A stretch of 64,000 bases of DNA from Plasmodiophora brassicae (GCA_036867785.1 CP145414.1:310001-374000), one strand, 5' to 3'; shown: positions 14,379 through 40,225, numbered from the stretch's first letter. Program-made: numbers and translations. Notes: generated by a model from the letters alone, not told the origin.

Positions 14379-14591
14379 CGTGCATCCGTCAATGATCGCC
14401 GCGATGTCCGCGTCACTGCATATCTGGTTTGACTACTGGAAGGACTACCAGATATGCAGTGACGCGAACATCGCGGCGATCATTGACGGATGCAGTGGCA
14501 TCGGTATGATCCGATGCCACTTTCGCGCTTCCAGTAGTCAAACCAGATATGCAGTGACGCGGACATCGCGGCGATCATTGACGGATGCACG
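14379..14591. repeat. Foldback / triplicated inverted repeat at the truncated 3' end of the YR gene
   Basis: 14379-14442 is the reverse complement of 14528-14591. A third partial copy lies at 14447-14494 (1 mismatch). An 11-bp hairpin spans 14494-14521. Confidence 0.9.
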
Positions 14592-15146
14592 TAGCGCTCG
14601 TTGGAGACGCACCACAGACTTCCGAAGTCATAGACCTGCCTGCGCCAGTCCGTTGCCGCCCACCTGTGATCGAACACAGGCAACGTCGGGTGGTGTCCGC
14701 CTAGCGACAGGTCGTGACACCCACGGACGGCTCGTGCACACCGGTCCAGCTCTTTCTGCTCATAGCAGTGATACTTTGCTGCGGCACTCGTCCCTGAACG
14801 GCCGCGCGACCACGCCTGGTCGCTCCACCCGCCGTACATGGCGGCGGACGCAGCAGATAGCTGGGGGTGACCCAAGGCTTTGGTAAAGCCACAGTTGCGA
14901 AGGCTATGGTTGGTCAGGCCATCTGTCACATGTTGTCGCATGCCATTAGCGTCAAGGACCCGGTACACCTCCTTGAAAATCCCGCCGAAGAAGGCGGACT
15001 CGTTGCCAGCACGAACGGCATCTGGGAACAGGAACGGTTCGTCCTGTTCGCCAACGGCAAGCGCCCCGAGCACCCCCATATGGTATGCATATGCGTTCAG
15101 AAGGTTACGAACCGGAGTCGGTTCCATTGTCTCCGCCACAGGCAGA

Positions 15147-15770
15147 ACCTGTGTCTCCCTCGTCTTCACGCGGAGCAGCCGGACATCCAGCGTGCCGCCG
15201 CGTTCGGTCGACAGGCGCAGGCTCTGCTGCGTCTGCTTCGCCATCATCACATCCGATGTTCGACCCATCAGCAGGACGCCCATGTTCAATGCGAATCTGC
15301 GGGATCCGTTAGCCACATGCGAGTTATACTACGCGTTCCTCAACTTACAATAGCGAGAAGCTCTTCGGGTTGTCGAGCTCGGCCAGGACATTCGATGCGA
15401 TGATCCAATCGGTCTCCGTGAAAGGAGCCGCGTTGGTCGCGATAACTTGCCCGGCCTGAACTCGCGTCTTGGTCACGTCGTTGACCAGCCGGTTTACGCT
15501 CGGCGCCCATTCCTGCGGCGACAGCCATCCACACTGCGCAGTGATGTCCCGGCAGCGGTACATCATGTCCACGTGGATTTGGGACAGGTACTGGGTGAGT
15601 GTTCCTGGTCGGACATGGATGCCGGTACGGCACCATGCAAGGAAACGCTCGAACAAGTAGCGGCCGCACTGTCCCTTAACGTCCGCTTCGCACATAGACG
15701 CGTACGATTCTGGCGCCTGCCGTCCTGCCCGTCTTCGTGTTATTGCATGCGTTGAAACACCGGCACATAT
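15147..15770 (+). repeat. 624-bp direct duplication of target sequence, left copy
   Basis: Matches 20863-21486 (acctgtgtctccc...cggcacatat). Confidence 0.92.
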
Positions 15771-15959
15771 AATCAGGACACTGTTGCGACCTCGAGTTCG
15801 CAGTCCGTGGCGGAGTCCGTGGCGGAGTTCGTTGCTGACTGACCTATCTGGCTTTGCGGACATTCCGGACATTCTCACGGTGCTGCCATGGCAGTTCACG
15901 GACTACTAAAGTTATTCTGTTATTGTCCTGCTTGAGTTCACGTGTCCCGTGCTTCAATT
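15771..15959 (+). repeat. 5' LTR (189 bp, AAT...ATT termini)
   Basis: Identical to 20674-20862 and followed directly by the PBS. Confidence 0.92.
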
Positions 15960-15972
15960 GGTTTTGGGCCCA
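15960..15972 (+). promoter_or_regulatory. Primer binding site, Copia-type (half tRNA-iMet)
   Basis: GGTTTTGGGCCCA, one mismatch from the copia PBS GGTTATGGGCCCA, immediately after the LTR. Confidence 0.7.
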
Positions 15973-15984
15973 TCCCAAGCCTAC

Positions 15985-16101
15985 CTCTGTCCCTGTTTCT
16001 GTCCCTGTTCCTGTCCGTGTTCCTGTCCCTGTTCCTGTCCTTGTTCCAGTCCCTGTTCCTGTCCCTGTTCCTGTCCCTGTTCCTGTCACTGTTCCTGTTC
16101 C
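15985..16101 (+). repeat. Pyrimidine-rich hexamer tandem array (CCTGTT/CCTGTC)n in the retrotransposon 5' UTR
   Basis: About 19 degenerate hexamer units. Confidence 0.85.
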
Positions 16102-16180
16102 AGCGTCCGAAGCCCCTCGTGATCCAGCTCGCGTCGTGACCGCCCGCGTTCCGTCTCCGTCTCTCTCGTGATCGCCCGCA

Positions 16181-17131
16181 ATGGCGGAAGACTGGAACCA
16201 GCTCGTTACAGGCCTTACCTCCCAGATCCAGATCCTTCAACAACAGCAACAGCAGCAGCAGCAGCTACTGCAGCAACAGCACGACCAACTGCTGCAACAG
16301 CAACAACAACTGACGCAGGCCCAGGCCTCCCCACAACAGCGAACGGTCTCACAGCATCATGCTCCTGAGCCCAAGGTCAAGCTTCCGCCCATGTACAACG
16401 GCGGCCGGGGCGAACTTCGCGGCTTTCTGAACCAGATCAAGCTGGTTATCACTCAGCGGCCCAACACCTACGCGGCCGACGCTCAGAAGGTCGCGCTGGT
16501 GGGCCAGCTGTTGGGTGGGGACGCCCTAAAGTGGTTTAACCCACTGTTCGAGCGGAATAACGACCTGATGAAGGACTTCAGCGCCTTCGTCTCCGCAATC
16601 AAGAGCAGATTCGGGGACCCGAACCTCGCAGAGACCGCGGCCCGCAAGCTCCAGCACCTGCGTCAGGGCAGAGGCACTGTCGCCCGCTTCGCCACAGAAT
16701 TCCAGAATCTGGCGGCGGACGCTGGGTTCAACGACTCAGCCTGCCGACACATGTTCCGCGCCGGCCTGGCCAGGGACGTGCAGTTCCTGCTGCTGTCCCT
16801 ACCCGTCGCCGAGACGCTTGACGAGCTTGTCATACAGGCAATTCGGTGCGACAACCGCCTGGCCGAGCACCGATCGGCCACCGCCCTCGTTCCTGTCCCT
16901 GCTGTCTCCGCCGCCGCAGTGCCGTCCGCTCCTTCCCCAGCCCCGGCCGCCGCGGTTGGGGATCCTATGGTTATCGACGCCGCGATCGGCGGTGGGCCCC
17001 GCGCGCCCTTAACCCAAGACGAGAAAGATCGCCGTCGTCGCGAAGGCCTGTGCCTCTACTGCGGGGTGGCTGGTCATGTCGCAGTGTCCTGCCCTGTGCG
17101 TCCGCAGGGAAACGCCTCCCGGCGTGGCTGA
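16181..17131 (+). CDS. gag: Gag, Ty3/Gypsy (chromovirus/Sushi/PEG10-like) type with CCHC knuckle
   Basis: PEPKVKLPPMYNGGRGELRGFLNQ, LGGDALKWF, LRQGRGTVARFATEF, PMVIDA, RRRREGLCLYCGVAGHVAVSCP. Confidence 0.9.
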   Translation: MAEDWNQLVTGLTSQIQILQQQQQQQQQLLQQQHDQLLQQQQQLTQAQASPQQRTVSQHHAPEPKVKLPPMYNGGRGELRGFLNQIKLVITQRPNTYAADAQKVALVGQLLGGDALKWFNPLFERNNDLMKDFSAFVSAIKSRFGDPNLAETAARKLQHLRQGRGTVARFATEFQNLAADAGFNDSACRHMFRAGLARDVQFLLLSLPVAETLDELVIQAIRCDNRLAEHRSATALVPVPAVSAAAVPSAPSPAPAAAVGDPMVIDAAIGGGPRAPLTQDEKDRRRREGLCLYCGVAGHVAVSCPVRPQGNASRRG

Positions 17132-17153
17132 AATCCCGGTCGGTCGCCACGTC
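17107..17153 (+). promoter_or_regulatory. -1 programmed ribosomal frameshift signal
   Basis: G GGA AAC in the gag frame (17107-17113). Stem ggcgtggc (17121-28) / gccacgtc (17146-53) starts 7 nt downstream. Pol lies in the -1 frame. Confidence 0.8.
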
Positions 17154-20100
17154 TACCAATACACCTGTTCCATCATGTAACCCCGACCACTTCTCTCCCG
17201 AGCCAAGTATGATTTCCGCGTCCACCAACCTCGTCGAGCACTTGGACCGTGTCCTAAGCATAGACGTGTCCCTTCAACTCGACAATGGCAAGACTGTACA
17301 GACGAAGGCACTTATCGACTCAGGAGCAACCAACGACTTCATACACTCCGACTTCGCCCGCGCTCACAACGTTCCGCTCACCAAGAAACCCGCACCGGTA
17401 GATCTGGAGGTAATTGACGGGCGGCGGCTACCGAAGGTGGCGCTGGAAACGGCCCCTGTCCGCCTCAGCATCGGCAACCACTCCGAATCGATCATGTTGA
17501 ACGTAATCGACTCCCCACGATTCCCGATTATCCTCGGCATGACCTGGCTCTCGAGGCACAACCCGAACATTAACTGGACACGCCGAACGATGGAGATTAC
17601 TCGTGTCACTCAGGACGCCGCGCGCGAACAGAGCGAACCCAAGGAAGCCATCACAGCCCTAACCTTGCACGACACTGACGTATTCCCTCAGCAACCAGAC
17701 CCACCACCTCAAGACCTCTCGCCACCCCCACGACACGAACGGCGGTCGAGGGCCCGTGTTGACAGCGGCAAGGCACCATACGCAGTCCCACTTCCCGGTG
17801 ATTGGAACCAAGCCCAATGCCTCAAGCGGTGGCACCACCGACTCGGCCATCGTAACCTGCGGGACGTCATCCTGATGGCAAACCACGACCTCACCGAATC
17901 CATGGAGATTCTGGCGCAGAAGGTTGACAAGTTCTGTGAAGGGTGCACTGTCGCGAAAGCCAAGGAACGCCCTTTCCCGTCGGAGTCCAAAGACAAGGAG
18001 TGGAATGTTCTCGAGAGAATCGACGTCGACGAATGCGGTCCGCTTCCCGTTGCGTCACTCAATGGGGAACGGTACTTTATCACGTTCACAGAATTCGCAA
18101 CCAGGATGAAATTCACATTCCTGCTGCACCACAAGAACGAGGCGCTGACCAAGTTCAAAGAGCTCAAGGCACGAATTGAGAACCGCCTGGAGAAATCCAT
18201 TAAGATCCTGTTCGGTGACAACGATGGAGTATTCATCAACGACGAGTTCAAGGCGCTCCTGCAGGAATGCGGGATCGAATGGAGATCAACGGTGGAGTAT
18301 TCTTCTAAGCAGAACGGCGTCTCCGAACGTGGCCACCTGACGCTCATGGACTCCGGCCGCGCAATGCTCGTACACGCAAGGCTTCCCAAGCAGTTCTGGG
18401 GACCCGCAATCCTGACTGCCAGCCACGTCCATAATCTCTGCCCCCACCCTCGCGATCCCACGACAACGCCCCATGAAAAGCTGTCGCGTTCGAAACCCGA
18501 CATCCGCTATCTCAGAACGTTCGGGTGCGACGCATATGGCTACGTCCCGTCCAGCCAGAGAACGAAGCTGGATCCACGCGCTGTGAAAGGCATCTTCATC
18601 GGATACGCGGACCACCAGAAAGGGTACGTTCTCTATCACCCGTCGTCCGGCCTAATCAAGGTGTACCGCAGCGTGACGTTCAACGAAGACAGCTTCGGCG
18701 GCCGCAGTGCAGATGACGCACTCGCTGATCCCGACGAGCCCGAGTCCGAATACGACGGCAACTACGTCCCCTCCGATGACGAATCCGCCGTCGAGGGGGC
18801 GCAGCTTGCAGGCCCCAGTGAGGATCCGCTGTCTCCCATTCAACGGGCTCGGCGTACCCCCCGCAAGCCAGACCGTCTTGGAGACCCCGTTCATCACGCC
18901 TGGATCGCGTCACTGCAACCTACCCACGACGCCCCCATCCACCACATGTGGATAGGTTCCACACATCAATGCGAGGACGACGACGGCGCCACACCCAGCG
19001 CAGAGGACCCCGACACTCCAACCACATACGAAGACGCTATGGCAAGTCCCGAGGCAGAGTTCTGGACCAAGGCGATGACCGATGAATTGAACAGCCTGAC
19101 AGAGCACAAAACATGGGAAGCCATCGAGCGACTACCCGTTGGGGCCCGTCCCATCGGATGTCGCTGGGTGTACAAGCGCAAAATCATGAAGACAAGTCAG
19201 GTTCCGCCAGACTCCACCTGGGTGCTTCGCCACGACCCCGATGGTGTCACCACCCACCGGTATAAGGCTCGCCTGTGTATACTTGGCTACAAACAGCGCG
19301 AAGGCGTCGACTACACCAAGACGTACGCGCCAGTTATTCGCAGCGACATCCTCCGCCTAGTACTAGCCCTATCCGTCCACGACAAGGAGATTATCGCAGA
19401 GCAGATGGACGTGATGACGGCATTTCTGAACGCCTACCTCACCGAAGAGATCTACATGGACTCTCCGAAGGGGTCGAAGGCCAGAACCCGCTTCGTCAAG
19501 CTCCTTCGATCGATCTACGGCCTGAAACAGGCACCAAGAGAATGGTTCAAGGTCATCGACGCCTTCCTCGTCAACGAATGTGGGTTCCAACGAGCCAAGT
19601 CCGCGTCGTGCTTGTACTTCAAACGTAGTCCAACCGGAAGGCTCGTCGTCGTTGGGGTCTACGTCGACGATATCCCCATCGTCGGACATCCCGAACTTGT
19701 ACACGAAACCAAGTCATCCCTCTCAAGGAGATTCAAGATGTCTGACATGGGTGAACTTCAATCCGTCATCGGCCTCGACGTGGATAGACAAGGTGGATCG
19801 GTGTTTCTGTCACAGGAACGCTACACGAAGACCATCATCGACACCTACGGCATGGCTGAATCGCGCCCCGTCTCGACACCGGCAGACGCGAACTTGAAGT
19901 TATCCACATCACTGTGCCCGCAGAACCAAGCTGACCGTGAACTAGTCGCGTTAGAAGGCCAGCGCATCAACTACCGAGCGGCAGTAGGCCACCTAATGTG
20001 GCTACTACACACTCGCCCAGACATCGCCTACGCTGTGAACGAGGTCTCACGTTATGTTCAAGACCCAGGGCCAGCCCATTTCGTCGCGCTGAAGCGGATC

Positions 20101-20745
20101 TTCAGGTACCTCAACGGCACGCGCAACTACGGGCTCCTGTTCGAAGGAGGTGGGGAAGCAACCACACCATTCCTAGTCGGCTATTCCGACTCTGACTGGG
20201 CAGGAGACGTCGACTCACGTCGGTCAACTTCTGGATACGTGTTCCTTCTGAATGGCTGTCCGGTTTCGTTCCGTTCTAAGAAGCAGACCACAGTCGCGTT
20301 ATCATCGTGCGAGGCGGAGACGGTGGCATCAACACTCGCGGCAACAGAAGGCGTATGGTTGCGCAATGTGCTGGACGAACTAGGTTTTCCACAAGCTCAG
20401 CCTACGCTCCTAAACGTGGACAACCAGGGGGCGATCGCGTTTGCCAACAGTGAAATCAACCACAGCAAAATGAAACACCTCGCGCTCAAGGATCACTTCG
20501 TCAGAGAACTGGTGGCATCCAACCTGATCAAGGTGCACTATGTTCGCTCAAGTGACAATCTAGCCGATATCTTCACGAAGCCGCTGGGGAAGGTCAAGTT
20601 TGTCGAATTCCGGCAGGCTCTCAAGTGCGTACCTCGTCCTGACCGAATCCCGAACTCTTCGGTCGAGGGGGCGAATCAGGACACTGTTGCGACCTCGAGT
20701 TCGCAGTCCGTGGCGGAGTCCGTGGCGGAGTTCGTTGCTGACTGA
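17107..20745 (+). CDS. pol: Pol polyprotein: Gypsy-type aspartic protease, then Copia-type pre-integrase/integrase, RT (RVT_2) and RNase H
   Basis: ALIDSGATNDFI..IILGMTWLSRHNPNINW; WHHRLGH..CEGC; DECGP, DNDG, QNGVSER; YKARLC, QMDVMTAFLN, IYGLKQAPREW, YVDD; YSDSDWAG, SSCEAE, VDNQGA, NLADIFTK. The stop lies inside the 3' LTR. Confidence 0.92.
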   Translation, partial: GKRLPAWLKSRSVATSTNTPVPSCNPDHFSPEPSMISASTNLVEHLDRVLSIDVSLQLDNGKTVQTKALIDSGATNDFIHSDFARAHNVPLTKKPAPVDLEVIDGRRLPKVALETAPVRLSIGNHSESIMLNVIDSPRFPIILGMTWLSRHNPNINWTRRTMEITRVTQDAAREQSEPKEAITALTLHDTDVFPQQPDPPPQDLSPPPRHERRSRARVDSGKAPYAVPLPGDWNQAQCLKRWHHRLGHRNLRDVILMANHDLTESMEILAQKVDKFCEGCTVAKAKERPFPSESKDKEWNVLERIDVDECGPLPVASLNGERYFITFTEFATRMKFTFLLHHKNEALTKFKELKARIENRLEKSIKILFGDNDGVFINDEFKALLQECGIEWRSTVEYSSKQNGVSERGHLTLMDSGRAMLVHARLPKQFWGPAILTASHVHNLCPHPRDPTTTPHEKLSRSKPDIRYLRTFGCDAYGYVPSSQRTKLDPRAVKGIFIGYADHQKGYVLYHPSSGLIKVYRSVTFNEDSFGGRSADDALADPDEPESEYDGNYVPSDDESAVEGAQLAGPSEDPLSPIQRARRTPRKPDRLGDPVHHAWIASLQPTHDAPIHHMWIGSTHQCEDDDGATPSAEDPDTPTTYEDAMASPEAEFWTKAMTDELNSLTEHKTWEAIERLPVGARPIGCRWVYKRKIMKTSQVPPDSTWVLRHDPDGVTTHRYKARLCILGYKQREGVDYTKTYAPVIRSDILRLVLALSVHDKEIIAEQMDVMTAFLNAYLTEEIYMDSPKGSKARTRFVKLLRSIYGLKQAPREWFKVIDAFLVNECGFQRAKSASCLYFKRSPTGRLVVVGVYVDDIPIVGHPELVHETKSSLSRRFKMSDMGELQSVIGLDVDRQGGSVFLSQERYTKTIIDTYGMAESRPVSTPADANLKLSTSLCPQNQADRELVALEGQRINYRAAVGHLMWLLHTRPDIAYAVNEVSRYVQDPGPAHFVALKRIFRYLNGTRNYGLLFEGGGEATTPFLVGYSDSDWAGDVDSRRSTSGYVFLLNGCPVSFRSKKQTTVALSSCEAETVASTLAATEGVWLRNVLDELGFPQAQPTLLNVDNQGAIAFANSEINHSKMKHLALKDHFVRELVASNLIKVHYVRSSDNLADIFTKPLGKVKFVEFRQALKCVPRPDRIPNSSVEGANQDTVATSSSQSVAESVAEFVAD
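20665..20673 (+). promoter_or_regulatory. Polypurine tract
   Basis: GAGGGGGCG abutting the 3' LTR, typical of Copia. Confidence 0.75.
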
Positions 20746-20862
20746 CCTATCTGGCTTTGCGGACATTCCGGACATTCTCACGGTGCTGCCATGGCAGTTC
20801 ACGGACTACTAAAGTTATTCTGTTATTGTCCTGCTTGAGTTCACGTGTCCCGTGCTTCAATT
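20674..20862 (+). repeat. 3' LTR (189 bp)
   Basis: Identical to the 5' LTR. Confidence 0.92.
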
Positions 20863-21486
20863 ACCTGTGTCTCCCTCGTCTTCACGCGGAGCAGCCGGAC
20901 ATCCAGCGTGCCGCCGCGTTCGGTCGACAGGCGCAGGCTCTGCTGCGTCTGCTTCGCCATCATCACATCCGATGTTCGACCCATCAGCAGGACGCCCATG
21001 TTCAATGCGAATCTGCGGGATCCGTTAGCCACATGCGAGTTATACTACGCGTTCCTCAACTTACAATAGCGAGAAGCTCTTCGGGTTGTCGAGCTCGGCC
21101 AGGACATTCGATGCGATGATCCAATCGGTCTCCGTGAAAGGAGCCGCGTTGGTCGCGATAACTTGCCCGGCCTGAACTCGCGTCTTGGTCACGTCGTTGA
21201 CCAGCCGGTTTACGCTCGGCGCCCATTCCTGCGGCGACAGCCATCCACACTGCGCAGTGATGTCCCGGCAGCGGTACATCATGTCCACGTGGATTTGGGA
21301 CAGGTACTGGGTGAGTGTTCCTGGTCGGACATGGATGCCGGTACGGCACCATGCAAGGAAACGCTCGAACAAGTAGCGGCCGCACTGTCCCTTAACGTCC
21401 GCTTCGCACATAGACGCGTACGATTCTGGCGCCTGCCGTCCTGCCCGTCTTCGTGTTATTGCATGCGTTGAAACACCGGCACATAT
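20863..21486 (+). repeat. 624-bp direct duplication, right copy
   Basis: Matches 15147-15770. Confidence 0.92.
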
Positions 21487-22018
21487 ATAATCAGCTCTAC
21501 CTTCTGCGCGTTCCCGCACCAGGAAACGATCAAAGTGGTTCCTGGCCGTCTCGAACGTGTTTTGGCCGTCGGGACGCGATGGCCAGAGTTGGCCAGGCGC
21601 AGGCGGTGCTGGTGGTTGCCTCAAAGCCTCTTCGTGAGACGCCGCCTTGCGTTCCCGCGTCATCGCTTTTCTGTATGGAAGCCGGAGTTGCTCGTCTGTG
21701 ACTTCGAGCGTGGTGGTACCCGCGTCCGTGAACGCGCTTGCAGCAGTGCCTCGTTCCGATGTGACGGGCAGGGAAGAAAGCCGCCGTGACAGGAAGAAAG
21801 TGGCCGTGCCAGGAAGAAAGCAGCCGAGTAGTGGTGCGAGCAACCAATGTGACGCGCAGCAAGTGCCTGGAACTCGGAAGCCCCACCGAACGCCCCACCG
21901 GCCGGATGCCCCACGGAATGCCCCACCGAGCGGCCCTTTACTGGGAGCTGCGGGAACGCGTGCGTTCGCCATATCTGGACATTCTAGTTGACCTGACGCC
22001 TTTCAAATATGTGACAGT

Positions 22019-22957
22019 TTATTGCATTGTTTCGGCTGGCTCGTGTTCGACAAATTCGGACACAATTTTGTCAGCCAATGGAACTGCATACGGCGGCTTA
22101 TTCGCCGCGAGCTCCCACAGCACGAACCGACCCGACGTCGCCGAATTGACCCCCACTTTTTTCCATGTCGACGTGTCGGGGTTGACAGGAATGGGGAGTC
22201 TTATGCGAAATGTCGTTCGGGGCGCCTGACTGTACGATGGACGGTGGTGCGCGAGTTCTTCATCGAGCGCATTCAGGCGTCCGTAGTATGTCTGCGGTTC
22301 GTCCGTCGATGCCCAAGTCGCGCACATGACCTGGGGTGAGAATAACGCAGTCGGCCAGCCATAGGAAATGATGGCGGTCTGGGCGTCGTCCTCATCTAGA
22401 TCGACATGGACGTCCTTGGCGTCGGGAATGCCGAACATCCCCGCACAGATGACCACGCGGTCCGTCTTTGTCGCTGCATCCCGGTAGACGGCGGCAAACA
22501 CGGGAGGATTGTCGATATCCACGGCGGTACGGGTCTCCGACTCGCTGGGCAGAGCAAGCTTGTACCTCTTCCGACTGCTTTTTGAATCCGAGTCATCGCC
22601 ATTGGATTCATCATTGTCCTCGCTCTTGTCTTCTGGCGCGCTTGTATCACCTCCTTCATTGTCGCCTTCTTTGCCTTCTTCAGACGAGCGCACTGGAGTA
22701 CATATTAGAATAAATAAACGTAATGGTGTACGTTGCTTACGGAAAGTGCCCTGCTTCAGCTTCGTCTCGTTAAAATGACGCCGGAACTTGTCCATGGTGT
22801 ACGCCTGGAAATCTGGATACTTATTGTATACGTCCTGCGGCCGAGTCGTCGAGGTTATCGTCCCGTCGGCGCAAAGCCTGTCCAGCAGTCGTTGCGCCGC
22901 AGACTTCTGGGTCCAACGCTTCATTTTAGGGTGTGTCGCGTTCTCACGTTGCAACAT
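22019..22957 (-). CDS. Harbinger accessory protein (ORF2; putative DNA-binding N-terminus, acidic linker)
   Basis: 312-aa ORF inside the TIRs, divergent from the transposase. Probable in-frame 48-nt intron at 22740-22693. Confidence 0.7.
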   Translation of the reverse strand: MLQRENATHPKMKRWTQKSAAQRLLDRLCADGTITSTTRPQDVYNKYPDFQAYTMDKFRRHFNETKLKQGTFRKQRTPLRLFILICTPVRSSEEGKEGDNEGGDTSAPEDKSEDNDESNGDDSDSKSSRKRYKLALPSESETRTAVDIDNPPVFAAVYRDAATKTDRVVICAGMFGIPDAKDVHVDLDEDDAQTAIISYGWPTALFSPQVMCATWASTDEPQTYYGRLNALDEELAHHRPSYSQAPRTTFRIRLPIPVNPDTSTWKKVGVNSATSGRFVLWELAANKPPYAVPLADKIVSEFVEHEPAETMQ

Positions 22958-23604
22958 CGGTCACCAGATGTTTCAACGCAGTTCTCCCTCCGTTCGTCTA
23001 ATTGGGCCCCGTTTCGGATTGGGCCCCCTTCGTCGGGTCGGGCGACCCCCTCGTCGGATCTGGCACCCGGCATCCCGTTTGTCGGATCGGGGCTCTACGC
23101 CAATGACGTATTTGGCGTGAAGGCAATCGACGGCTTTTGCAGCACGCCAAATACGTCATTGGCGCCTGTAACGTAACGCAGGAACGTCTACTCATACAAC
23201 TTCTCCGTCATACCCTGTGTGGCCGATACGGTCTATGACCTGGTTAGCGAGTAAGTTAACACACCATATCGTGAACACCTTATACGTACCCTGCGGAATC
23301 GATAATGAAGGATTTCTCTTGAAATGCGGGCATTTGAACTTGAACATTATGCCGGTGCCCCGACCATTTGTGAACCTGATTATAACACAGCCATTTATGT
23401 GGAACACAATTAGTCACGATTGAAAGAAAGTCGAATGTACGTAGCAGCCGGCAACTATCAAAGAAGAAGATATCGCGAAGCTATAGACGAGATATTGGCA
23501 CTGGAATTGGTGTAGTACCGACGTTTCATCAACCTACGGACGTTTTGCATGGCGCCAAAGTCGTATTTGGCGTCAAGCCAAACGTCAACATTGGCCGCAC
23601 GCAA

Positions 23605-24516
23605 ATGTCGACTTTGGCGGAGGCTGCCACAGCCGACGACTTCTGGGCGTTGGGACATACCCTGACCCGGCATCGGGTATCGCATGGGAGAGCCACCGGG
23701 CATCGTCGGTTCCGGGCGATGTTTGGTGTTTCCCCAGACGTTTGCTCTCTGCTGTGGGCATTATTGCGAGGTGACCTGCCGCAAACAGCGAAGCCGATTC
23801 ACTTATTGTGGTCGCTTCTGTTCTTAAAACGGTACGATACTGAGCACATCAACCGAGCAATAACGGGAGCCGATGAAAAAACGTTCCGGAAATGGGTATG
23901 GGCGTTCATACAGCGGCTTGCCAATCTTGCAGTGGTATTATTCGCATACAACTGGCATGTTTAATTCGTGGTTGACCTGTGCATTCAGATCCAATGGAAA
24001 GACCGCTTCGCCGGTGCTCCAAGGCATTGCAATTGTTTCGTGTCTTTGGACGCGACTGATTGCCCCATACAGGAGCCGTCGCCGTTCGATCGAAAATGGT
24101 ATTCCCACAAAACCAATGGGCCAGGGGTCCGGTACGAGGTTGGCATATGTATTAGAACTGGTCGAATTGTCTGGGTCTCCGGGGGTGTTCCTTGTGGTGA
24201 TTGGCCCGACCTAAAGCTGGCACGGTTCGGTTACCTGGCACATGTTCGCCAAGGGGAAGTAACGATTGCGGACAAAGGTTACCGTGATCGTGGCTTTTTC
24301 AAGTGGCCTGAAGATGATGATCCAATGAACACCATAATCAAACGCATTTTGGCCCGACACGAAACGGTCAACAAGCGTCTGAAGGTGTTCGAAGTGCTGA
24401 ACCAGCCGTTCCGACATCCGCGCTATCGCCATCCGCAATGCATGCATGCGGTCGCCAACGTTGTGCAAATGATGCTGCAGAACGGCGAACCATTATTTAG
24501 TGTCCAACCAGTATGA
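23605..24516 (+). CDS. Harbinger DDE transposase (DDE_Tnp_4-like), 1 intron
   Basis: SLDATDCPIQEP..WYSHK, WPDL, IADKGY, ARHETVNKRLKVF. Intron at ~23935-23988. Confidence 0.88.
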
Positions 24517-24870
24517 TCCCACAGCATATGCATCGATCACCACTGAGCATATGGCGCATATTCCCCAACATTTTGTTAAACGCTTTCAGTTCAACGCGCC
24601 AGCAGCTTTGCCAGCTCTCGTATATGGAAATTACTACCGGGTGTTACTAAGTCCATACTCTACGATGTCACAAGGATGCAGATTTATTATCATTGTTGGG
24701 TTCTGATCAATTATTGTTATTGGTAGCAGATTTCGTAATGTATGACGGTTCCCGCAGCTCCCTGATATGCATTTAAAATAATGTGTTGAGCGTTTGCGGG
24801 ACGGAAAAAACGAGGACGGCGCTGGGCGGCCGCGACGACGTCACTGAAGGCTGCCCCGACCCTTCGGTGA

Positions 24871-34572: not shown

Positions 34573-34734
34573 CGGCGCCGGCTTCGTCGATCGTGCGCTC
34601 GCGTCCGAGTCGCTCTGACCTCGGACACTTCTCCGGACTCCGTACGTCGAGTGCTACAGGGAGCTGCGGGAACGCGTGCGTTCGCCATATCTGGACATTC
34701 TAGTTGACCTGACGCCTTTCAAATATGTGACAGT

Positions 34735-35673
34735 TTATTGCATTGTTTCGGCTGGCTCGTGTTCGACAAATTCGGACACAATTTTGTCAGCCAATGGAAC
34801 TGCATACGGCGGCTTATTCGCCGCGAGCTCCCACAGCACGAACCGACCCGACGTCGCCGAATTGACCCCCACTTTTTTCCATGTCGACGTGTCGGGGTTG
34901 ACAGGAATGGGGAGTCTTATGCGAAATGTCGTTCGGGGCGCCTGACTGTACGATGGACGGTGGTGCGCGAGTTCTTCATCGAGCGCATTCAGGCGTCCGT
35001 AGTATGTCTGCGGTTCGTCCGTCGATGCCCAAGTCGCGCACATGACCTGGGGTGAGAATAACGCAGTCGGCCAGCCATAGGAAATGATGGCGGTCTGGGC
35101 GTCGTCCTCATCTAGATCGACATGGACGTCCTTGGCGTCGGGAATGCCGAACATCCCCGCACAGATGACCACGCGGTCCGTCTTTGTCGCTGCATCCCGG
35201 TAGACGGCGGCAAACACGGGAGGATTGTCGATATCCACGGCGGTACGGGTCTCCGACTCGCTGGGCAGAGCAAGCTTGTACCTCTTCCGACTGCTTTTTG
35301 AATCCGAGTCATCGCCATTGGATTCATCATTGTCCTCGCTCTTGTCTTCTGGCGCGCTTGTATCACCTCCTTCATTGTCGCCTTCTTTGCCTTCTTCAGA
35401 CGAGCGCACTGGAGTACATATTAGAATAAATAAACGTAATGGTGTACGTTGCTTACGGAAAGTGCCCTGCTTCAGCTTCGTCTCGTTAAAATGACGCCGG
35501 AACTTGTCCATGGTGTACGCCTGGAAATCTGGATACTTATTGTATACGTCCTGCGGCCGAGTCGTCGAGGTTATCGTCCCGTCGGCGCAAAGCCTGTCCA
35601 GCAGTCGTTGCGCCGCAGACTTCTGGGTCCAACGCTTCATTTTAGGGTGTGTCGCGTTCTCACGTTGCAACAT
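34735..35673 (-). CDS. Harbinger accessory protein (copy 2)
   Basis: Identical translation to 22019-22957. Confidence 0.7.
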   Translation of the reverse strand: MLQRENATHPKMKRWTQKSAAQRLLDRLCADGTITSTTRPQDVYNKYPDFQAYTMDKFRRHFNETKLKQGTFRKQRTPLRLFILICTPVRSSEEGKEGDNEGGDTSAPEDKSEDNDESNGDDSDSKSSRKRYKLALPSESETRTAVDIDNPPVFAAVYRDAATKTDRVVICAGMFGIPDAKDVHVDLDEDDAQTAIISYGWPTALFSPQVMCATWASTDEPQTYYGRLNALDEELAHHRPSYSQAPRTTFRIRLPIPVNPDTSTWKKVGVNSATSGRFVLWELAANKPPYAVPLADKIVSEFVEHEPAETMQ

Positions 35674-36320
35674 CGGTCACCAGATGTTTCAACGCAGTTC
35701 TCCCTCCGTTCGTCTAATTGGGCCCCGTTTCGGATTGGGCCCCCTTCGTCGGGTCGGGCGACCCCCTCGTCGGATCTGGCACCCGGCATCCCGTTTGTCG
35801 GATCGGGGCTCTACGCCAATGACGTATTTGGCGGGAAGGCAATCGACGGCTTTTGCAGCACGCCAAATACGTCATTGGCGCCTGTAACGTAACGCAGGAA
35901 CGTCTACTCATACAACTTCTCCGTCATACCCTGTGTGGCCGATACGGTCTATGACCTGGTTAGCGAGTAAGTTAACACACCATATCGTGAACACCTTATA
36001 CGTACCCTGCGGAATCGATAATGAAGGATTTCTCTTGAAATGCGGGCATTTGAACTTGAACATTATGCCGGTGCCCCGACCATTTGTGAACCTGATTATA
36101 ACACAGCCATTTATGTGGAACACAATTAGTCACGATTGAAAGAAAGTCGAATGTACGTAGCAGCCGGCAACTATCAAAGAAGAAGATATCGCGAAGCTAT
36201 AGACGAGATATTGGCACTGGAATTGGTGTAGTACCGACGTTTCATCAACCTACGGACGTTTTGCATGGCGCCAAAGTCGTATTTGGCGTCAAGCCAAACG
36301 TCAACATTGGCCGCACGCAA

Positions 36321-37232
36321 ATGTCGACTTTGGCGGAGGCTGCCACAGCCGACGACTTCTGGGCGTTGGGACATACCCTGACCCGGCATCGGGTATCGCA
36401 TGGGAGAGCCACCGGGCATCGTCGGTTCCGGGCGATGTTTGGTGTTTCCCCAGACGTTTGCTCTCTGCTGTGGGCATTATTGCGAGGTGACCTGCCGCAA
36501 ACAGCGAAGCCGATTCACTTATTGTGGTCGCTTCTGTTCTTAAAACGGTACGATACTGAGCACATCAACCGAGCAATAACGGGAGCCGATGAAAAAACGT
36601 TCCGGAAATGGGTATGGGCGTTCATACAGCGGCTTGCCAATCTTGCAGTGGTATTATTCGCATACAACTGGCATGTTTAATTCGTGGTTGACCTGTGCAT
36701 TCAGATCCAATGGAAAGACCGCTTCGCCGGTGCTCCAAGGCATTGCAATTGTTTCGTGTCTTTGGACGCGACTGATTGCCCCATACAGGAGCCGTCGCCG
36801 TTCGATCGAAAATGGTATTCCCACAAAACCAATGGGCCAGGGGTCCGGTACGAGGTTGGCATATGTATTAGAACTGGTCGAATTGTCTGGGTCTCCGGGG
36901 GTGTTCCTTGTGGTGATTGGCCCGACCTAAAGCTGGCACGGTTCGGTTACCTGGCACATGTTCGCCAAGGGGAAGTAACGATTGCGGACAAAGGTTACCG
37001 TGATCGTGGCTTTTTCAAGTGGCCTGAAGATGATGATCCAATGAACACCATAATCAAACGCATTTTGGCCCGACACGAAACGGTCAACAAGCGTCTGAAG
37101 GTGTTCGAAGTGCTGAACCAGCCGTTCCGACATCCGCGCTATCGCCATCCGCAATGCATGCATGCGGTCGCCAACGTTGTGCAAATGATGCTGCAGAACG
37201 GCGAACCATTATTTAGTGTCCAACCAGTATGA
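36321..37232 (+). CDS. Harbinger transposase (copy 2)
   Basis: Identical translation to copy 1. Confidence 0.88.
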
Positions 37233-37536
37233 TCCCACAGCATATGCATCGATCACCACTGAGCATATGGCGCATATTCCCCAACATTTTGTTAAACGCT
37301 TTCAGTTCAACGCGCCAGCAGCTTTGCCAGCTCTCGTATATGGAAATTACTACCGGGTGTTACTAAGTCCATACTCTACGATGTCACAAGGATGCAGATT
37401 TATTATCATTGTTGGGTTCTGATCAATTATTGTTATTGGTAGCAGATTTCGTAATGTATGACGGTTCCCGCAGCTCCCAGGAACCGACAACGTCCCCGGC
37501 GGGATCCTTTTCGTCCACGACGAGGCCCCGCGTCTC

Positions 37537-39894
37537 CTATCGCATTCGTCGCATATGGCCGTGCTGAACACGTGCGCCCAAGTCGGGTATGTCGACGGAT
37601 CTGGTGATGCTTGATGCGGCCAGAACTGGCACGTCTGCAATCGCTGTGATCAAGTGCTCGGTGACGATGAGCCGCTTGCTCGCCGATCGGCGTTGGAGCA
37701 CGATGGCAATGCAGGCGAGCATGCCGAAGAATGTGAACGCGCACCCAGTGACAATTAATGCAACGTTTTCGATGTGGGAGGCGTCGGATGCACCGACGAC
37801 CGTTGCGTGCTTGTTGCTTGGAGGCAGTGACGCTCCAAGGTTCACGTTGTTCTGGACCTTAATGAAGTAGATCTTGACGGTTCCGACCGTTCTCGGAAGG
37901 CTGTTATCCTGCAAATAGTTCCCGGCCTTGAAGTAGACGTTGTGCGTTGCCCAGGACGACGCGTTCATCGTGTATGTCTCGGTATAACCATTGAGCATGC
38001 AGGTGACGATGTTCGCGTTTACCTCGATACTGTACGAATATTTCTGCCCAAAGGGCGCAGCGTATCGTCCTCTAGCTGGCGATACAATTCCCAGGTTCTC
38101 CTTCACCGACGCAAATAGGACACCGCCCCGTTTCGGATCATTGTACCAGTAAACCTTGACGGCTTCGCTGCCGTCATCATAGCCATGGATCTGCCCGATA
38201 ATCATTCGGCCCGTGTAGGACAGGGCAGCGACTCGCCCCGTCACTTCCAGACGGTTGGACAGCATGGGCGTCGAGCGGCGGTCAAACCAAAAGTCGACCT
38301 TGTGGCGTAGCTCGGTTCGAGGATAATGTGACCCTTCCGTCGTGTTGCCGTCAGACGGTGTCGAGAACGACATGGCGCCATCGACCGGGTCTGTGAAGAA
38401 GTTGTCGGAGTCGTTCCAGCCGATCGGGCTGTAGCCGATCTGAACTGGTGATATTGCCAGCTGCAATGTGAACTGAGACAGGTTGAAGTTCCCCGAGGGC
38501 GGTGACCTGGGGTCCAAGAAAGGCATGTCTGACGTTGACGTCGCTGCTGTCGGCATGGCAGTTGTCCTCACAGCTGGCGCCAGCCTAGGTAGCGTGGTCG
38601 CCCACGATGCGGACGACGTACCGCTGGAAGGTGCAGATGGCATCCTGATCCTGGATGCAGAAGACTCTCTGGTCGGCTGTACAGAAACGAGTTTAGGCTG
38701 CGGTCCAGAAAGTGTTATGGTTGCCGGTACAGGTTGCGCTCTAGACGGTGCTGCAGAACGTGTCCTCGTCGGCGGTGGAGAAGTTCTCCTGGTACGCGTG
38801 AGGGAAGGCGTTCTGCCACCCGGTGGGAAACGTGTTCTGGTCGACGGTGGAGAAAGTATTCTATATGTCAGAGATGCAGACGGTGCTCTGACCGATGCCA
38901 ATACAGACGGTGTTCGTGTCGGCGGTGCAGAAGGAGTTCTGGACGGTGGTGACGATGGCGTCCTGGTCGGTGGCGCAGACCGTGCTTTGAGCGGCGTAGA
39001 CCTTCTTGTCAGCGGTGGAGAAGGTGCTCTTGGTGTAAACGGTGTTTCGGTAGTCGGTGGTGGAGATGGCTTCTCGGTTGCTAGGGCCGGTGTTGTGGTG
39101 CTGATTGCCTTGAGGCTGGCATTGCTCTGGACCCTGATGGAGTAGATCTTGACGGTTCCGATCGTTCTCGGAAGGCTGTTGTCCTGCAAATAGTTCCCGG
39201 CCTTGAAGTAGACGTTGTGCGTTGCCCAGGACGACGCGTTCATCATGTATGTCTCGGTATAACCATTGAGCATGCAGGTGACGATGTTCGCGTTCACCTC
39301 GATACTGTACGAATATTGCTGCCCAAACGGCGCAGCGTATCGTCCTCTAGCTGGCGATACAACTCCCAGATTCTCCTTCACCGACGCATATAGGACACCG
39401 CCCCGTTTCGGATCATTGAACCAGTAAATCTTGACGGCTTCGCTGCCGTCGTCATAGCCATGGATCTGCCCGATAATCATTCGGCCCGTGTATGACAGGG
39501 CAGCGACTCGCCCCGTCACTTCCAGACGGTTGGACAGCATTGGCGTCGAGCGGCGGTCAAACCAAAAGTCGACCTTGTGGCGTAGCTCGGTTCGAGGATA
39601 ATGTGACCCTTCCGTCGTGTTGCCGTCAGACGGCGTCGAGAACGACATGGCGCCATCGACCGGGTCTGTGAAGAAGTTGGCGGAGTCGTTCCAGCCGACC
39701 GGGCTGTACCCGATTTGAATGGGTGATATCGCCAGCTGCAACGTGAACTGGGACAGGTTGAAGTTCCCCGAGGGCGGCAACCTGGGGTCCAGGTTTTGCG
39801 CGCCTACCAGTCCAAAGTGCGGCGCGATCGCAGTCAGAGCCAGCACAACGCTGATCTGGACGCGAGGCTTTTGCTGCGAGAGCCTGGACGACAT
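37537..39894 (-). CDS. Tandem polysaccharide lyase family 7 (alginate/polyuronate lyase) with signal peptide, Pro/Thr/Ser linker and C-terminal TM
   Basis: Two domains, each with YPRTELR, IIGQIH and YFKAGNYLQ. N-terminal VQISVVLALTAIAPHFGLVGA. C-terminal VALIVTGCAFTFFGMLACIAIVL. Confidence 0.88.
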   Translation of the reverse strand: MSSRLSQQKPRVQISVVLALTAIAPHFGLVGAQNLDPRLPPSGNFNLSQFTLQLAISPIQIGYSPVGWNDSANFFTDPVDGAMSFSTPSDGNTTEGSHYPRTELRHKVDFWFDRRSTPMLSNRLEVTGRVAALSYTGRMIIGQIHGYDDGSEAVKIYWFNDPKRGGVLYASVKENLGVVSPARGRYAAPFGQQYSYSIEVNANIVTCMLNGYTETYMMNASSWATHNVYFKAGNYLQDNSLPRTIGTVKIYSIRVQSNASLKAISTTTPALATEKPSPPPTTETPFTPRAPSPPLTRRSTPLKARSAPPTRTPSSPPSRTPSAPPTRTPSVLASVRAPSASLTYRILSPPSTRTRFPPGGRTPSLTRTRRTSPPPTRTRSAAPSRAQPVPATITLSGPQPKLVSVQPTRESSASRIRMPSAPSSGTSSASWATTLPRLAPAVRTTAMPTAATSTSDMPFLDPRSPPSGNFNLSQFTLQLAISPVQIGYSPIGWNDSDNFFTDPVDGAMSFSTPSDGNTTEGSHYPRTELRHKVDFWFDRRSTPMLSNRLEVTGRVAALSYTGRMIIGQIHGYDDGSEAVKVYWYNDPKRGGVLFASVKENLGIVSPARGRYAAPFGQKYSYSIEVNANIVTCMLNGYTETYTMNASSWATHNVYFKAGNYLQDNSLPRTVGTVKIYFIKVQNNVNLGASLPPSNKHATVVGASDASHIENVALIVTGCAFTFFGMLACIAIVLQRRSASKRLIVTEHLITAIADVPVLAASSITRSVDIPDLGARVQHGHMRRMR

Positions 39895-40225
39895 GACATT
39901 GGAGGGTGATAGAAATAGATCATGCCGAGCGTACCAAATATCTGCTACGCTGTGCTGTAACTCATGGCGGAAACGGTATAGAGGACGCTGTACGTCGTTC
40001 AATCGACAAAGGACGATACGCGGGTCCCTCGAATTTACAGGCAACATAAATAATGTCATCGTCCACAAGACGGCAGCCTGGCGCTGGCCTCGTTGTCTGC
40101 TGGACGCCGAATCCAGGCAGCCACCTATAATCCTCCACACCACTAAACCGAGTGGCGTGATCGGGCCCGTAACCTGCAAGGGGTTGCGCTCAACGGGGTT
40201 GTTATATATAGTGGAGGGGGTTGCA

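What the first reader, a model, noticed from the sequence alone, without database searches (positions are those of the whole stretch)
15771..20862. Intact chimeric LTR retrotransposon: Gypsy Gag-protease fused to Copia integrase-RT-RNase H
Seen: Gag (PEPKVKLPPMYNG, PMVIDA, RRREGLCLYCG) and protease (ALIDSGATNDFI, IILGMTWLSRHNPNINW) carry Ty3/Gypsy chromovirus/Sushi-PEG10 signatures. Downstream in the same open frame are a Copia pre-integrase (WHHRLGH), the integrase placed before the RT, an RVT_2-type RT and a Ty1-type RNase H. The PBS and PPT are also Copia-like. Established: Copia elements normally have UBN2-type Gag and a DSGAS/TxHM protease, and the two superfamilies are anciently separate. 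Inference: a cross-superfamily recombinant (junction ~17600-17820). Open ORFs and identical LTRs indicate it has transposed recently as a chimera.
Basis: partly seen in the sequence, partly recalled or inferred. Interest (0 to 1): 0.93.

Follow-up and report, generated by a model that had tools for sequence, protein, structure and literature searches.

The report
Copia retrotransposon with Gypsy-type coat genes
This is an intact, recently mobile jumping gene whose coat protein and protease come from one great family of such elements (Gypsy) and whose copying and inserting enzymes come from the other (Copia); it belongs to an old, rare hybrid lineage rather than being a fresh accident.

Summary
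Window 15771-20862 is an LTR retrotransposon with two identical 189-bp LTRs, an open gag and an open pol.

- **Mosaic.** Gag and protease match only Ty3/Gypsy models and chromovirus-type polyproteins. Integrase, RT and RNase H match only Ty1/Copia.
- **Not a fresh chimera.** Six further distinct elements from metagenomes, at 42-56% pol identity, share the Gypsy-type protease joined to Copia IN-RT. Contig L001 also carries the same gag, and L002 its C-terminal end. In all three elements pol is in the -1 frame, with the only in-phase slippery heptamer (GGGAAAC or GGGAAAT) just before the gag stop. This is an old hybrid lineage.
- **Which way it arose.** Gag/PR identity to chromoviruses lies within chromovirus diversity, while an unrelated Gypsy element in the same window shows none. 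That favours capture of a chromovirus gag-PR module. An outgroup-rooted RT test, however, could not exclude a basal Copia position.
- **Recent mobility.** One run shows an empty site, and other loci have 5-bp duplications.
- **Unexplained.** This copy is flanked by a perfect 625-bp host duplication.

I found no published description in seven full-text searches.

The parts
15147..15770 (.). left copy of the duplicated host stretch X that flanks the element
   Evidence: 100% identical to 20863-21487 over 625 nt; base 15771 is shared with the LTR start. In runs X2 and X4, X is a separate 625-nt contig at about twice the depth of its flanks.
15771..15959 (+). 5' LTR, 189 bp, ends 5'-AATCAG...TTCAATT-3'
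   Evidence: Identical to 20674-20862. Its exact ends are confirmed by contigs from other loci that diverge at 15771 and after 20862.
15959..15976 (+). putative primer-binding region (TGG...), primer not identified
   Evidence: Sequence read. No tRNA gene in the window. No complement of 7 nt or more to the LTR, so no sign of self-priming.
15965..16122 (+). pyrimidine-rich 12-nt tandem repeats in the 5' leader
   Evidence: family D1, 10 copies. L001 has 33-nt C/T-rich repeats in the same place.
16181..17131 (+). gag, Ty3/Gypsy chromovirus/PEG10 type, with one CCHC knuckle
   Evidence: Pfam Retrotrans_gag, DUF4939 and Ty3_capsid. PDB PEG10 capsid 1.8e-11. 8077 relatives at E<=1e-3. CCHC motif present.
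17107..17113 (+). GGGAAAC, candidate -1 ribosomal frameshift site
   Evidence: The only in-phase X XXY YYZ heptamer in the gag/pol overlap. The same site lies at the same relative place in L001 (GGGAAAC) and L002 (GGGAAAT). It is the heptamer used by PEG10 (passage in PMC2800197).
17107..20745 (+). pol, read in the -1 frame from the slip site; the frame is open from 16822 and ends 72 nt inside the 3' LTR
17299..17607 (+). aspartic protease, Gypsy type (LIDSGA ... IILGMTWL)
   Evidence: Pfam RVP_2 3.5e-8. 34-45% identity to the PR of 5 of 6 Gypsy polyproteins and 0 of 8 Copia.
17608..17772 (+). variable linker that holds the module boundary
   Evidence: Unaligned and variable among lineage members. 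Contigs of four runs break at 17744-17773.
17773..18708 (+). Copia-type pre-integrase (HHCC), integrase core and SH3-like domain
   Evidence: Pfam gag_pre-integrs, rve and SH3_retrovirus. 32-42% identity to 8 of 8 Copia and 0 of 6 Gypsy.
19210..19884 (+). Copia-type reverse transcriptase (YVDD)
   Evidence: Pfam RVT_2 3.8e-58.
20086..20658 (+). Copia-type RNase H (DSDWAGD)
   Evidence: 37-48% identity to 8 of 8 Copia polyproteins; motif present.
20665..20673 (+). short polypurine tract GAGGGGGCG abutting the 3' LTR
   Evidence: Sequence read.
20674..20862 (+). 3' LTR
20863..21487 (.). right copy of the duplicated host stretch X
   Evidence: A contig of run X8 joins 15594 to 21310, which is the empty site with a single X.

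Best explanation
The element is an active member of an old, rare lineage of LTR retrotransposons. In this lineage a Ty3/Gypsy (chromovirus/Sushi/PEG10-like) expression module is joined to a Ty1/Copia replication module. The Gypsy part is gag, the -1 frameshift site GGGAAAC and the aspartic protease. The Copia part is pre-integrase, integrase, RT and RNase H, in Copia order.

Most likely a Copia-type element acquired the gag-PR module of a chromovirus once, long ago, and gag and pol have since descended together.

Inferred life cycle:
- Transcription starts in the 5' LTR.
- Gag is the main translation product.
- A minority of ribosomes slip -1 at GGGAAAC and make Gag-Pol.
- The Gypsy-type protease cuts the polyprotein.
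- The Gypsy-type capsid encloses the RNA together with Copia-type RT/RNase H and integrase.
- The cDNA is integrated with a 5-bp target duplication.

Shown here: intact frames and motifs, the mosaic, its conservation in relatives, the conserved slip site, insertion polymorphism and the 5-bp duplications at other loci.

Inferred only: frameshifting itself, particle formation, the primer, and the direction and date of the module exchange.
For: **Mosaic.** Pfam and module BLASTP agree.
- Gag hit 6/6 Gypsy and 0/8 Copia polyproteins; PR 5/6 and 0/8; IN, RT and RNase H each 8/8 Copia and 0/6 Gypsy.
- The Gypsy comparators were chosen by gag similarity, so the PR result is the independent one. The Copia comparators were chosen by pol similarity, so their lack of gag/PR similarity is the independent one.

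**A lineage, not a one-off.**
- P0001-P0005 align at 47-53% identity over 63-95% of pol. P0005 is the same element as L001.
- PR is of the Gypsy or general retroviral aspartyl type in P0002 (RVP_2 2e-12), L001 (RVP_2 5e-6) and P0004.
- L001 carries gag (Retrotrans_gag, Ty3_capsid) followed by pol in the -1 frame. L002 has the gag C-terminus followed by PR and IN.
- P0001 and the best gag hit P0160 both sit on a contig of 10556 bp from the same source.
- 104 of the other 115 listed Copia hits carry Copia gag and/or Pol_BBD (my count from the listing). The 5 without such hits that I re-scanned showed, at most, weak Copia-type gag or protease matches and no RVP_2 or Ty3_capsid.

**Co-descent.** Win, L001 and L002 gags fall in one clade, 98* in FastTree on 184 rows. 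Win and L001 do so again at 95* in the quick PMSF tree on 52 rows, where L002 was not included. The pol clade has 100* support.

**The gag-PR lies within Gypsy diversity.**
- All 5 informative gag-pol fusions among the top 150 gag relatives are Gypsy/chromovirus, and none has RVT_2. So is P0158.
- Win gag is 32-39% identical to Gypsy-linked gags. That is the same range as Gypsy to Gypsy (25-44%) and as win to L001 (35%).
- The lineage gag profile matches the Gypsy gag profile at E 2e-73, but the Copia gag profile only at 1e-11. Gypsy against Copia gives 8e-9.
- A different Gypsy element in the same window has gag/PR with no significant similarity (best E 0.37), although its pol matches chromovirus pol.

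**Slip site.** It is conserved in 3 of 3 elements and is the same heptamer as in PEG10.

**Mobility.** The empty site in X8, the TSD TATGC (X2/X4) and a probable TSD CCCCA (X7) are all.
Against: **Rooting is open.** In the RT tree with three Gypsy RTs as outgroup, the free search placed the outgroup away from the lineage. The AU test, however, did not reject lineage plus outgroup together (p 0.657). The constrained tree even had a log-likelihood 16.7 higher. The RT data therefore allow the lineage to be sister to all other Copia; long-branch attraction is possible either way.

**Limits of the gag tree.** It is rooted only at the midpoint. The pol type of the other 16 gags in the 19-row lineage clade is unknown. 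The careful search did not finish, so only quick and FastTree supports exist.

**Junction not bridged by contigs.** No listed contig of the four runs spans 17744-17773 with 31 letters on both sides. Within this genome, contiguity rests on the assembly itself.

**Frameshift stimulator.** No stable RNA structure was predicted downstream of the slip site (z -0.38).

**This copy.** It lacks a normal target duplication (625 bp instead of 5), so its own insertion may not have been an ordinary integrase event.
Confidence: 0.75

Rival explanations
1. Basal Copia lineage. The element belongs to a branch that split off before all other Copia and simply kept the gag-PR type that the common ancestor of Copia and Gypsy had. 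No recombination took place.
For: The AU test does not reject lineage plus Gypsy outgroup as one side of a branch in the RT tree (p 0.657; the constrained tree has the better likelihood). The lineage is a well-separated clade with a 0.54 stem.
Against: - Gag and PR usually evolve faster than RT. Here they are 32-45% identical to chromovirus gag/PR, while RT, IN and RNase H give no BLASTP hit to the same Gypsy polyproteins.
- The similarity is to one Gypsy subgroup only. Another Gypsy element in the same window shows none.
- The lineage gag is no closer to the Copia gag profile than ordinary Gypsy gags are in any meaningful way (1e-11 against 8e-9).
- In the IN+RT-RNase H tree the lineage is sister to two canonical Copia (P0039, P0015; 99*) inside the Copia radiation under midpoint rooting.
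- It shares the GGGAAAC slip site with PEG10.
Confidence: 0.12
2. Recent de novo chimera. A Gypsy and a Copia element of this genome recombined near 17600-17820 shortly before this copy inserted.
For: - Contigs in four runs break at 17744-17773, exactly at the module boundary.
- The gag-PR part is laid at several times the depth of the IN-RT part, and the dominant variants differ from the window copy by 10-22 letters in contigs of 522-839 nt, about 2-3%.
- So a more abundant relative shares gag-PR but differs downstream.
Against: - Seven distinct elements at 42-56% pol identity share the architecture, frame and slip site.
- The 8 loose letters that continue the abundant variant after 17773 (TGCCCTAC) read in frame as V-P-Y against the window's A-P-Y. 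The variant therefore seems to continue into the same Copia-type pre-integrase. Eight letters are weak evidence.
- Parts of IN-RT reach 3-4 times flank depth, which suggests diverged copies of the same kind. The tool warns that depth is not copy number.
Confidence: 0.05
3. Artefact. A mis-assembly or a nested insertion of one element into another only looks like a chimera.
For: The odd 625-bp flanking duplication and the lack of a bridging contig at 17744-17773.
Against: - There is one continuous open frame from PR into IN, one pair of identical LTRs, and no remnant of a Gypsy RT/IN or a Copia gag inside.
- An independent metagenome contig (L001) and single predicted proteins (P0002, P0004) have the same joined layout.
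- The X duplication is backed by twofold depth in two runs from different studies.
Confidence: 0.02

Closest known systems
Ty1/Copia (Pseudoviridae) LTR retrotransposons
   Same: Domain order PR-IN-RT-RNase H. RVT_2 reverse transcriptase, gag_pre-integrs, rve, SH3_retrovirus and Copia RNase H at 32-48% identity to 8 of 8 Copia polyproteins. 5-bp target duplication at other loci.
   Different: Gag and protease are not of Copia type: no Retrotran_gag_2/3 and no Pol_BBD. Gag and pol are separate frames with a -1 slip site, not one ORF. LTR ends are AA...TT, not TG...CA.
Ty3/Gypsy chromoviruses, the Sushi-ichi group and its domesticated derivative PEG10
   Same: Gag (Retrotrans_gag, DUF4939, Ty3_capsid; PEG10 capsid 7lga at 1.8e-11). 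RVP_2 protease with DSGA and ILGMxWL. -1 frameshift heptamer GGGAAAC. Gag relatives with a known pol are chromovirus type.
   Different: No RVT_1 RT, no RT_RNaseH, no Integrase_H2C2 and no chromodomain. Integrase precedes RT.
Gmr1-like Gypsy elements (Goodwin & Poulter 2002; seen only as reference B6 in PMC2774666)
   Same: A mix of Gypsy and Copia traits: integrase placed before RT.
   Different: Going by that paper's title and my recall, Gmr1-like elements are Gypsy elements with a rearranged domain order. Here RT, RNase H and IN are themselves Copia by sequence.
CoDi-A Copia elements of diatoms, with a chromodomain (passages of PMC2774666)
   Same: A Copia lineage carrying a trait otherwise typical of Gypsy chromoviruses, discussed as modular evolution.
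   Different: There the added trait is a small C-terminal domain, thought to have been captured independently. Here the whole gag-PR half is of Gypsy type and no chromodomain is present.

Membership tests
Ty1/Copia (Pseudoviridae) | Reverse transcriptase of the Copia (RVT_2) type | tested here: met
   RVT_2 3.8e-58. RT 33-42% identical to 8/8 Copia and 0/6 Gypsy.
Ty1/Copia (Pseudoviridae) | pol order PR-IN-RT-RNase H with Copia-type integrase | tested here: met
   gag_pre-integrs, rve and SH3_retrovirus lie upstream of RVT_2.
Ty1/Copia (Pseudoviridae) | Copia-type gag (Retrotran_gag_2/3) and Copia protease (Pol_BBD) | tested here: not met
   No hit in the window element. 104 of 115 other listed Copia hits have them (my count).
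Ty1/Copia (Pseudoviridae) | 5-bp target-site duplication | tested here: inconclusive
   Not at this copy, which has a 625-bp duplication. Met at another locus (TATGC) and probably a second (CCCCA), judged from loose contig ends. Whether those copies are full length is unknown.
Ty1/Copia (Pseudoviridae) | PBS complementary to initiator tRNA-Met (3' end or internal part) | not testable with these tools
   No tRNA gene in the window and no genome held.
Ty3/Gypsy (Metaviridae), chromovirus branch | RVT_1 RT followed by RNase H and then H2C2 integrase | tested here: not met
   None of RVT_1, RT_RNaseH or Integrase_H2C2 was found. 0/6 Gypsy polyproteins were hit by IN, RT or RNase H.
Ty3/Gypsy (Metaviridae), chromovirus branch | Retrotrans_gag/Ty3-type capsid and RVP_2-type protease | tested here: met
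Ty3/Gypsy (Metaviridae), chromovirus branch | Chromodomain at the integrase C-terminus | tested here: not met
   No Chromo hit.
Gmr1-like Gypsy elements | Gypsy-type RT with integrase moved upstream | tested here: not met
   The RT is RVT_2/Copia. The definition of the family is recalled, not read.

The most novel reading that the evidence does not exclude
An undescribed, still active clade of LTR retrotransposons that straddles the two great superfamilies. A complete chromovirus expression cassette (capsid, nucleocapsid knuckle, GGGAAAC -1 frameshift signal and protease) has run a Copia replication and integration machinery over long evolutionary time.

If so, capsid/protease and RT/integrase modules are interchangeable across the Copia-Gypsy divide.

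A bolder extension: the linker between PR and pre-integrase is a recurrent exchange point. In this genome a more abundant sister subfamily shares gag-PR at about 97-98% identity but diverges downstream of 17773.
Probability: 0.45. Interest if true: 0.72.

Novelty: new variant of a known kind. Interest (0 to 1): 0.62.

Why it matters
- **Classification.** LTR retrotransposons are sorted into Copia and Gypsy by RT phylogeny and domain order, and the two are treated as anciently separate. A long-lived lineage with a Gypsy structural half and a Copia enzymatic half would show that whole modules can cross that divide and stay functional.
- **Annotation.** This bears on how elements with mixed domain hits are handled, since they can easily be taken for nested insertions or artefacts.
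- **Origins.** It also bears on models of how retroelement and retrovirus genomes were assembled from modules.
- **A natural experiment.** A Gypsy-type protease and capsid must here process and package Copia-type enzymes.
- **The 625-bp duplication.** With exact LTR ends on both sides, it is a separate oddity that may record an aberrant integration.

Tried and rejected

- No whole genome is held for the window, so a copy census was impossible.
- Gag alignments A1 and A2 were too variable for the search for related loci. I used the pol alignment A3 instead. It gave 3 loci from 489 candidate stretches; L003 is only 25% identical and was not used.
- The viral-contig scan found no relative.
- The 'longer' gag search gave a single hit, probably crowded out by the poly-Q stretch.
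- The PR region has no PDB sequence match.

**Analyses that led nowhere**
- RNA fold downstream of the slip site: z -0.38, no support for a stimulator.
- Self-priming as in Tf1: no complement of 7 nt or more between the PBS region and the LTR.
- Outgroup rooting of the RT tree: inconclusive.
- The careful gag tree did not finish in time, so I report the quick tree.

**Expression.** No RNA holder is listed on record.

**Reads.** No listed contig bridges 17744-17773, and 323 records were not shown.

**Literature.** Full-text searches found no description of a Copia pol with Gypsy gag-PR. These cover open-access papers and preprints only. Repbase and subscription journals were not searchable, and supplements were closed.

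**Ideas rejected**
- The in-window Gypsy element as donor of gag-PR: no similarity.
- A Gmr1-like rearranged Gypsy: the RT is Copia.

Full report
**1. What is there**

Window 15771-20862 is bounded by two 189-nt direct repeats, 15771-15959 and 20674-20862, that are 100% identical.

- Between them lie a 316-aa gag ORF (16181-17131) and a pol frame open from 16822 to 20745. Pol overlaps gag in the -1 frame.
- Pol ends 72 nt inside the 3' LTR.
- Neither ORF has a stop. The CCHC knuckle, protease DSGA, integrase HHCC, RT YVDD and RNase H DSDWA motifs are all present.
- A short polypurine run, GAGGGGGCG, abuts the 3' LTR.
- A TGG-initiated stretch follows the 5' LTR. No primer could be assigned: the window has no tRNA gene, no genome is held, and nothing suggests self-priming.

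**2. The mosaic is real**

Pfam places the two halves in different superfamilies.

| Part | Pfam hits |
|---|---|
| Gag | Retrotrans_gag 1.1e-14, DUF4939 9.7e-11, Ty3_capsid 2e-8 |
| Pol N-terminus | RVP_2 3.5e-8 |
| Rest of pol | gag_pre-integrs, rve, SH3_retrovirus 5e-26, RVT_2 3.8e-58 |

- No Copia gag model and no Pol_BBD (the Copia protease barrel) matched.
- A typical Copia polyprotein scored Retrotran_gag_2 7.7e-51 and Pol_BBD 5e-25 (P0006).
- Canonical Copia gags can hit Retrotrans_gag weakly, at about 1e-5, underneath a strong Retrotran_gag_2 hit (P0037, P0096). A Retrotrans_gag hit alone is therefore not diagnostic. What counts here is the combination and the absence of Copia models.

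BLASTP of the separate modules gave a clean split.

| Module | Gypsy polyproteins hit | Copia polyproteins hit | Identity |
|---|---|---|---|
| Gag | 6 of 6 | 0 of 8 | 32-39% |
| PR | 5 of 6 | 0 of 8 | 34-45% |
| IN, RT, RNase H (each) | 0 of 6 | 8 of 8 | 32-48% |

- The Gypsy comparators had been found through gag, so the PR result is the independent one.
- The Copia comparators had been found through pol, so their silence on gag/PR is the independent one.
- Gag also matches the solved PEG10 capsid domain (7lga, 1.8e-11).
- Muszewska et al. 2011 (PMC3248453, passages read) report RVP_2 with Gypsy and RVT_2 with Copia in fungi. This is the usual association that the element breaks.

**3. It is a lineage, not a fresh accident**

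- The pol search returned 153 proteins, of which 120 were listed. Five (P0001-P0005) are 47-53% identical over 63-95% of pol, including the protease region.
- All other hits are at most about 41% identical (mostly 30-37%) and align from the integrase onward.
- By my count from that listing, 104 of the other 115 carry Copia gag and/or Pol_BBD. The 5 exceptions I re-scanned gave at most weak Copia-type matches to gag or protease, and none gave RVP_2 or Ty3_capsid.
- In the alignment, P0002-P0004 share the protease blocks D-S/N/G-G-A and ILG-M/L-xWL.
- The single metagenome scan found contig L001 (44% identity) and L002 (42%).
- L001 has the same gag type (Retrotrans_gag 1.1e-11, Ty3_capsid 8.6e-9), then pol in the -1 frame with RVP_2, gag_pre-integrs, rve, SH3_retrovirus and RVT_2.
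- L002 has a gag C-terminus with the same knuckle, then PR and IN, with a frame break in PR.
- P0005 is the same element as L001 (identical stretches). That leaves seven distinct elements counting the window's.
- P0001 and the best gag hit P0160 both lie on a 10556-bp contig from the same source, which suggests a fourth gag-pol pair.

**4. Frameshift site**

In each of the three gag/pol overlaps there is exactly one in-phase X XXY YYZ heptamer. Each lies some 20 nt before the gag stop.

| Element | Heptamer | Position |
|---|---|---|
| Window | GGGAAAC | 17107 |
| L001 | GGGAAAC | 1536 |
| L002 | GGGAAAT | 340 |

- Reading -1 from the window site reproduces the pol frame.
- GGGAAAC is the PEG10 slip site (PMC2800197, one passage read).
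- No stable downstream structure was predicted (z -0.38).

**5. Which way did it arise?**

Evidence that the gag-PR module comes from inside Gypsy diversity:

- A search of 1.84 billion representatives with gag aa 54-316 found 8077 relatives at E<=1e-3.
- Of the 7 long proteins among the best 150, 5 carry Gypsy/chromovirus pol domains (RVT_1, Chromo, SH3_Tf2-1). Two are uninformative and none has RVT_2. P0158 is also a Gypsy polyprotein.
- In a 184-row FastTree, the three Copia-linked gags fall in one 19-row clade (98*) with a short stem of 0.2. The six Gypsy-linked gags lie outside it, on more than one side under midpoint rooting.
- A quick site-heterogeneous tree of 52 rows agrees (95*). The careful search did not finish.
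- Pairwise gag identity is 35% between window and L001, 32-39% between window and Gypsy-linked gags, and 25-44% among Gypsy-linked gags.
- The lineage gag profile matches the Gypsy gag profile at E 2e-73 and the Copia gag profile at 1e-11. Gypsy against Copia gives 8e-9.
- A different Gypsy element in the same window has gag/PR with no significant similarity to this one (best E 0.37), although its pol is recognisably related to chromovirus pol.

So the similarity is to one subgroup of Gypsy. It is as close as members of that subgroup are to each other.

On the enzyme side:

- The lineage is a 100* clade, sister to two canonical Copia (99*), inside the Copia radiation under midpoint rooting.
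- Against this, the free RT-only tree with three Gypsy RTs as outgroup put the root elsewhere. The AU test did not reject lineage plus outgroup together (p 0.657), and that constrained tree was better by 16.7 log-likelihood units.
- The root of Copia relative to this lineage therefore stays open, and long-branch attraction could act either way.

I favour a single ancient capture of a chromovirus gag-PR module by a Copia backbone. The alternative would need fast-evolving gag and PR to stay 32-45% identical to chromoviruses while RT, IN and RNase H diverged beyond BLASTP detection.

**6. Recent mobility, and an odd insertion**

I laid contigs of four runs from four studies on 14500-22000.

- One contig of X8 joins 15594 to 21310. 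That is the empty site with one copy of the flanking stretch.
- Contigs from other loci end or start exactly at the LTR termini. A left flank ending ...TATGC (X4) and a right flank starting TATGC... (X2, X4) indicate a 5-bp duplication.
- X7 gives a second probable pair, CCCCA, although its left-flank consensus has only 0.58 agreement.
- The family therefore moves by ordinary integration and is polymorphic among strains.

The window copy is different.

- It is flanked by a perfect 625-bp duplication, 15147-15771 and 20863-21487.
- In X2 and X4 that stretch is a separate 625-nt contig at twice the depth of its flanks (548 against 273/285, and 141 against 70/71). X2 may be the source sample; X4 is from another study.
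- I cannot tell whether this reflects two half-site integrations 625 bp apart or unequal recombination between two nearby insertions.

**7. A sister subfamily**

- Across 16769-17728 the contigs in all four runs carry letters that differ from the window, 10-22 per contig of 522-839 nt. They are laid at several times the depth of the IN-RT part, whose contigs match the window almost perfectly.
- Contigs break at 17744-17773, which is the PR/pre-integrase linker.
- The 8 loose letters that continue the abundant form in X8 read in frame as V-P-Y where the window has A-P-Y. The abundant form therefore probably also runs into a Copia pre-integrase.
- This is thin evidence, and contig depth is not copy number.
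- No listed contig bridges the boundary with 31 letters on both sides.

**8. Comparison and novelty**

- By RT, domain order and integrase the element is Copia. By gag, protease and gag-pol expression strategy it is a chromovirus-like Gypsy.
- It fails one defining feature of each superfamily. It is not a Gmr1-like rearranged Gypsy either.
- Seven full-text searches and passages of PMC2774666, PMC3248453 and PMC5718144 gave no description of such a lineage.
- The literature does accept modular evolution of LTR elements, for example the CoDi-A chromodomain.
- Repbase, subscription journals and supplements could not be checked.
- I rate it a new variant of a known kind, of real interest to transposon specialists, with the direction of the exchange still to be settled.

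Noticed in passing
window 15147-15771 and 20863-21487: The element is flanked by a perfect 625-bp direct duplication of host sequence instead of a 5-bp one, and both LTR ends are exact. A contig of run X8 shows the empty site with a single copy. In X2 and X4 the 625-bp stretch has about twice the depth of its flanks. The host sequence just right of the duplication (21489-21494) reads AATCAG, the same as the first six bases of the LTR. Candidate causes are two half-site integrations 625 bp apart, or unequal recombination between two nearby insertions.
   Followed up: partly
window 15771-15773 and 20860-20862: The LTR termini are 5'-AAT...ATT-3', not the usual TG...CA. The ends are confirmed by contigs from other loci that diverge exactly there.
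   Followed up: partly
window 16508-17773 versus 17774-20774: In four runs the gag-PR part is laid at several times the depth of the IN-RT part. The dominant variant there differs from the window copy by about 2-3%, and contigs break at 17744-17773. This suggests a more abundant sister subfamily that shares gag-PR but diverges downstream. Depth of contigs is not copy number.
   Followed up: partly
window 15965-16122; L001 299-488: Pyrimidine-rich tandem repeats (12-nt units here, 33-nt units in L001) lie in the 5' leader between the LTR/PBS and gag in both elements. Their function is unknown.
   Followed up: no
window 20470: Contigs in X4 and X8 join an unrelated AT-richer sequence to the element at 20470. 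This is probably a truncated copy, or a copy interrupted by another insertion.
   Followed up: no
window 21939-24762 and 34655-37478: A 2.8-kb repeat at 99.9% identity, with 313-aa minus-strand ORFs that have no Pfam match. Several different left neighbours at 21939-21943 in the read contigs show it is a multi-copy element of unknown type.
   Followed up: no
window 60613-64000 (+): A separate Ty3/Gypsy element (aspartic protease, RVT_1, RT_RNaseH, Integrase_H2C2) runs off the window end. The RT is split between two frames at 62575/62576. Its gag/PR is unrelated to that of the hybrid element.
   Followed up: partly
window 37537-40293 (-), 47692-48870 (+), 51759-53201 (+): Host genes: a protein with two alginate lyase (Alginate_lyase2) stretches and an internal 670-bp repeat (37847-38516 / 39122-39791, 95.5%); a CDP-diglyceride synthase-like gene; and a CEP76-like centrosomal protein, which points to a flagellated or centriole-bearing eukaryote.
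   Followed up: no
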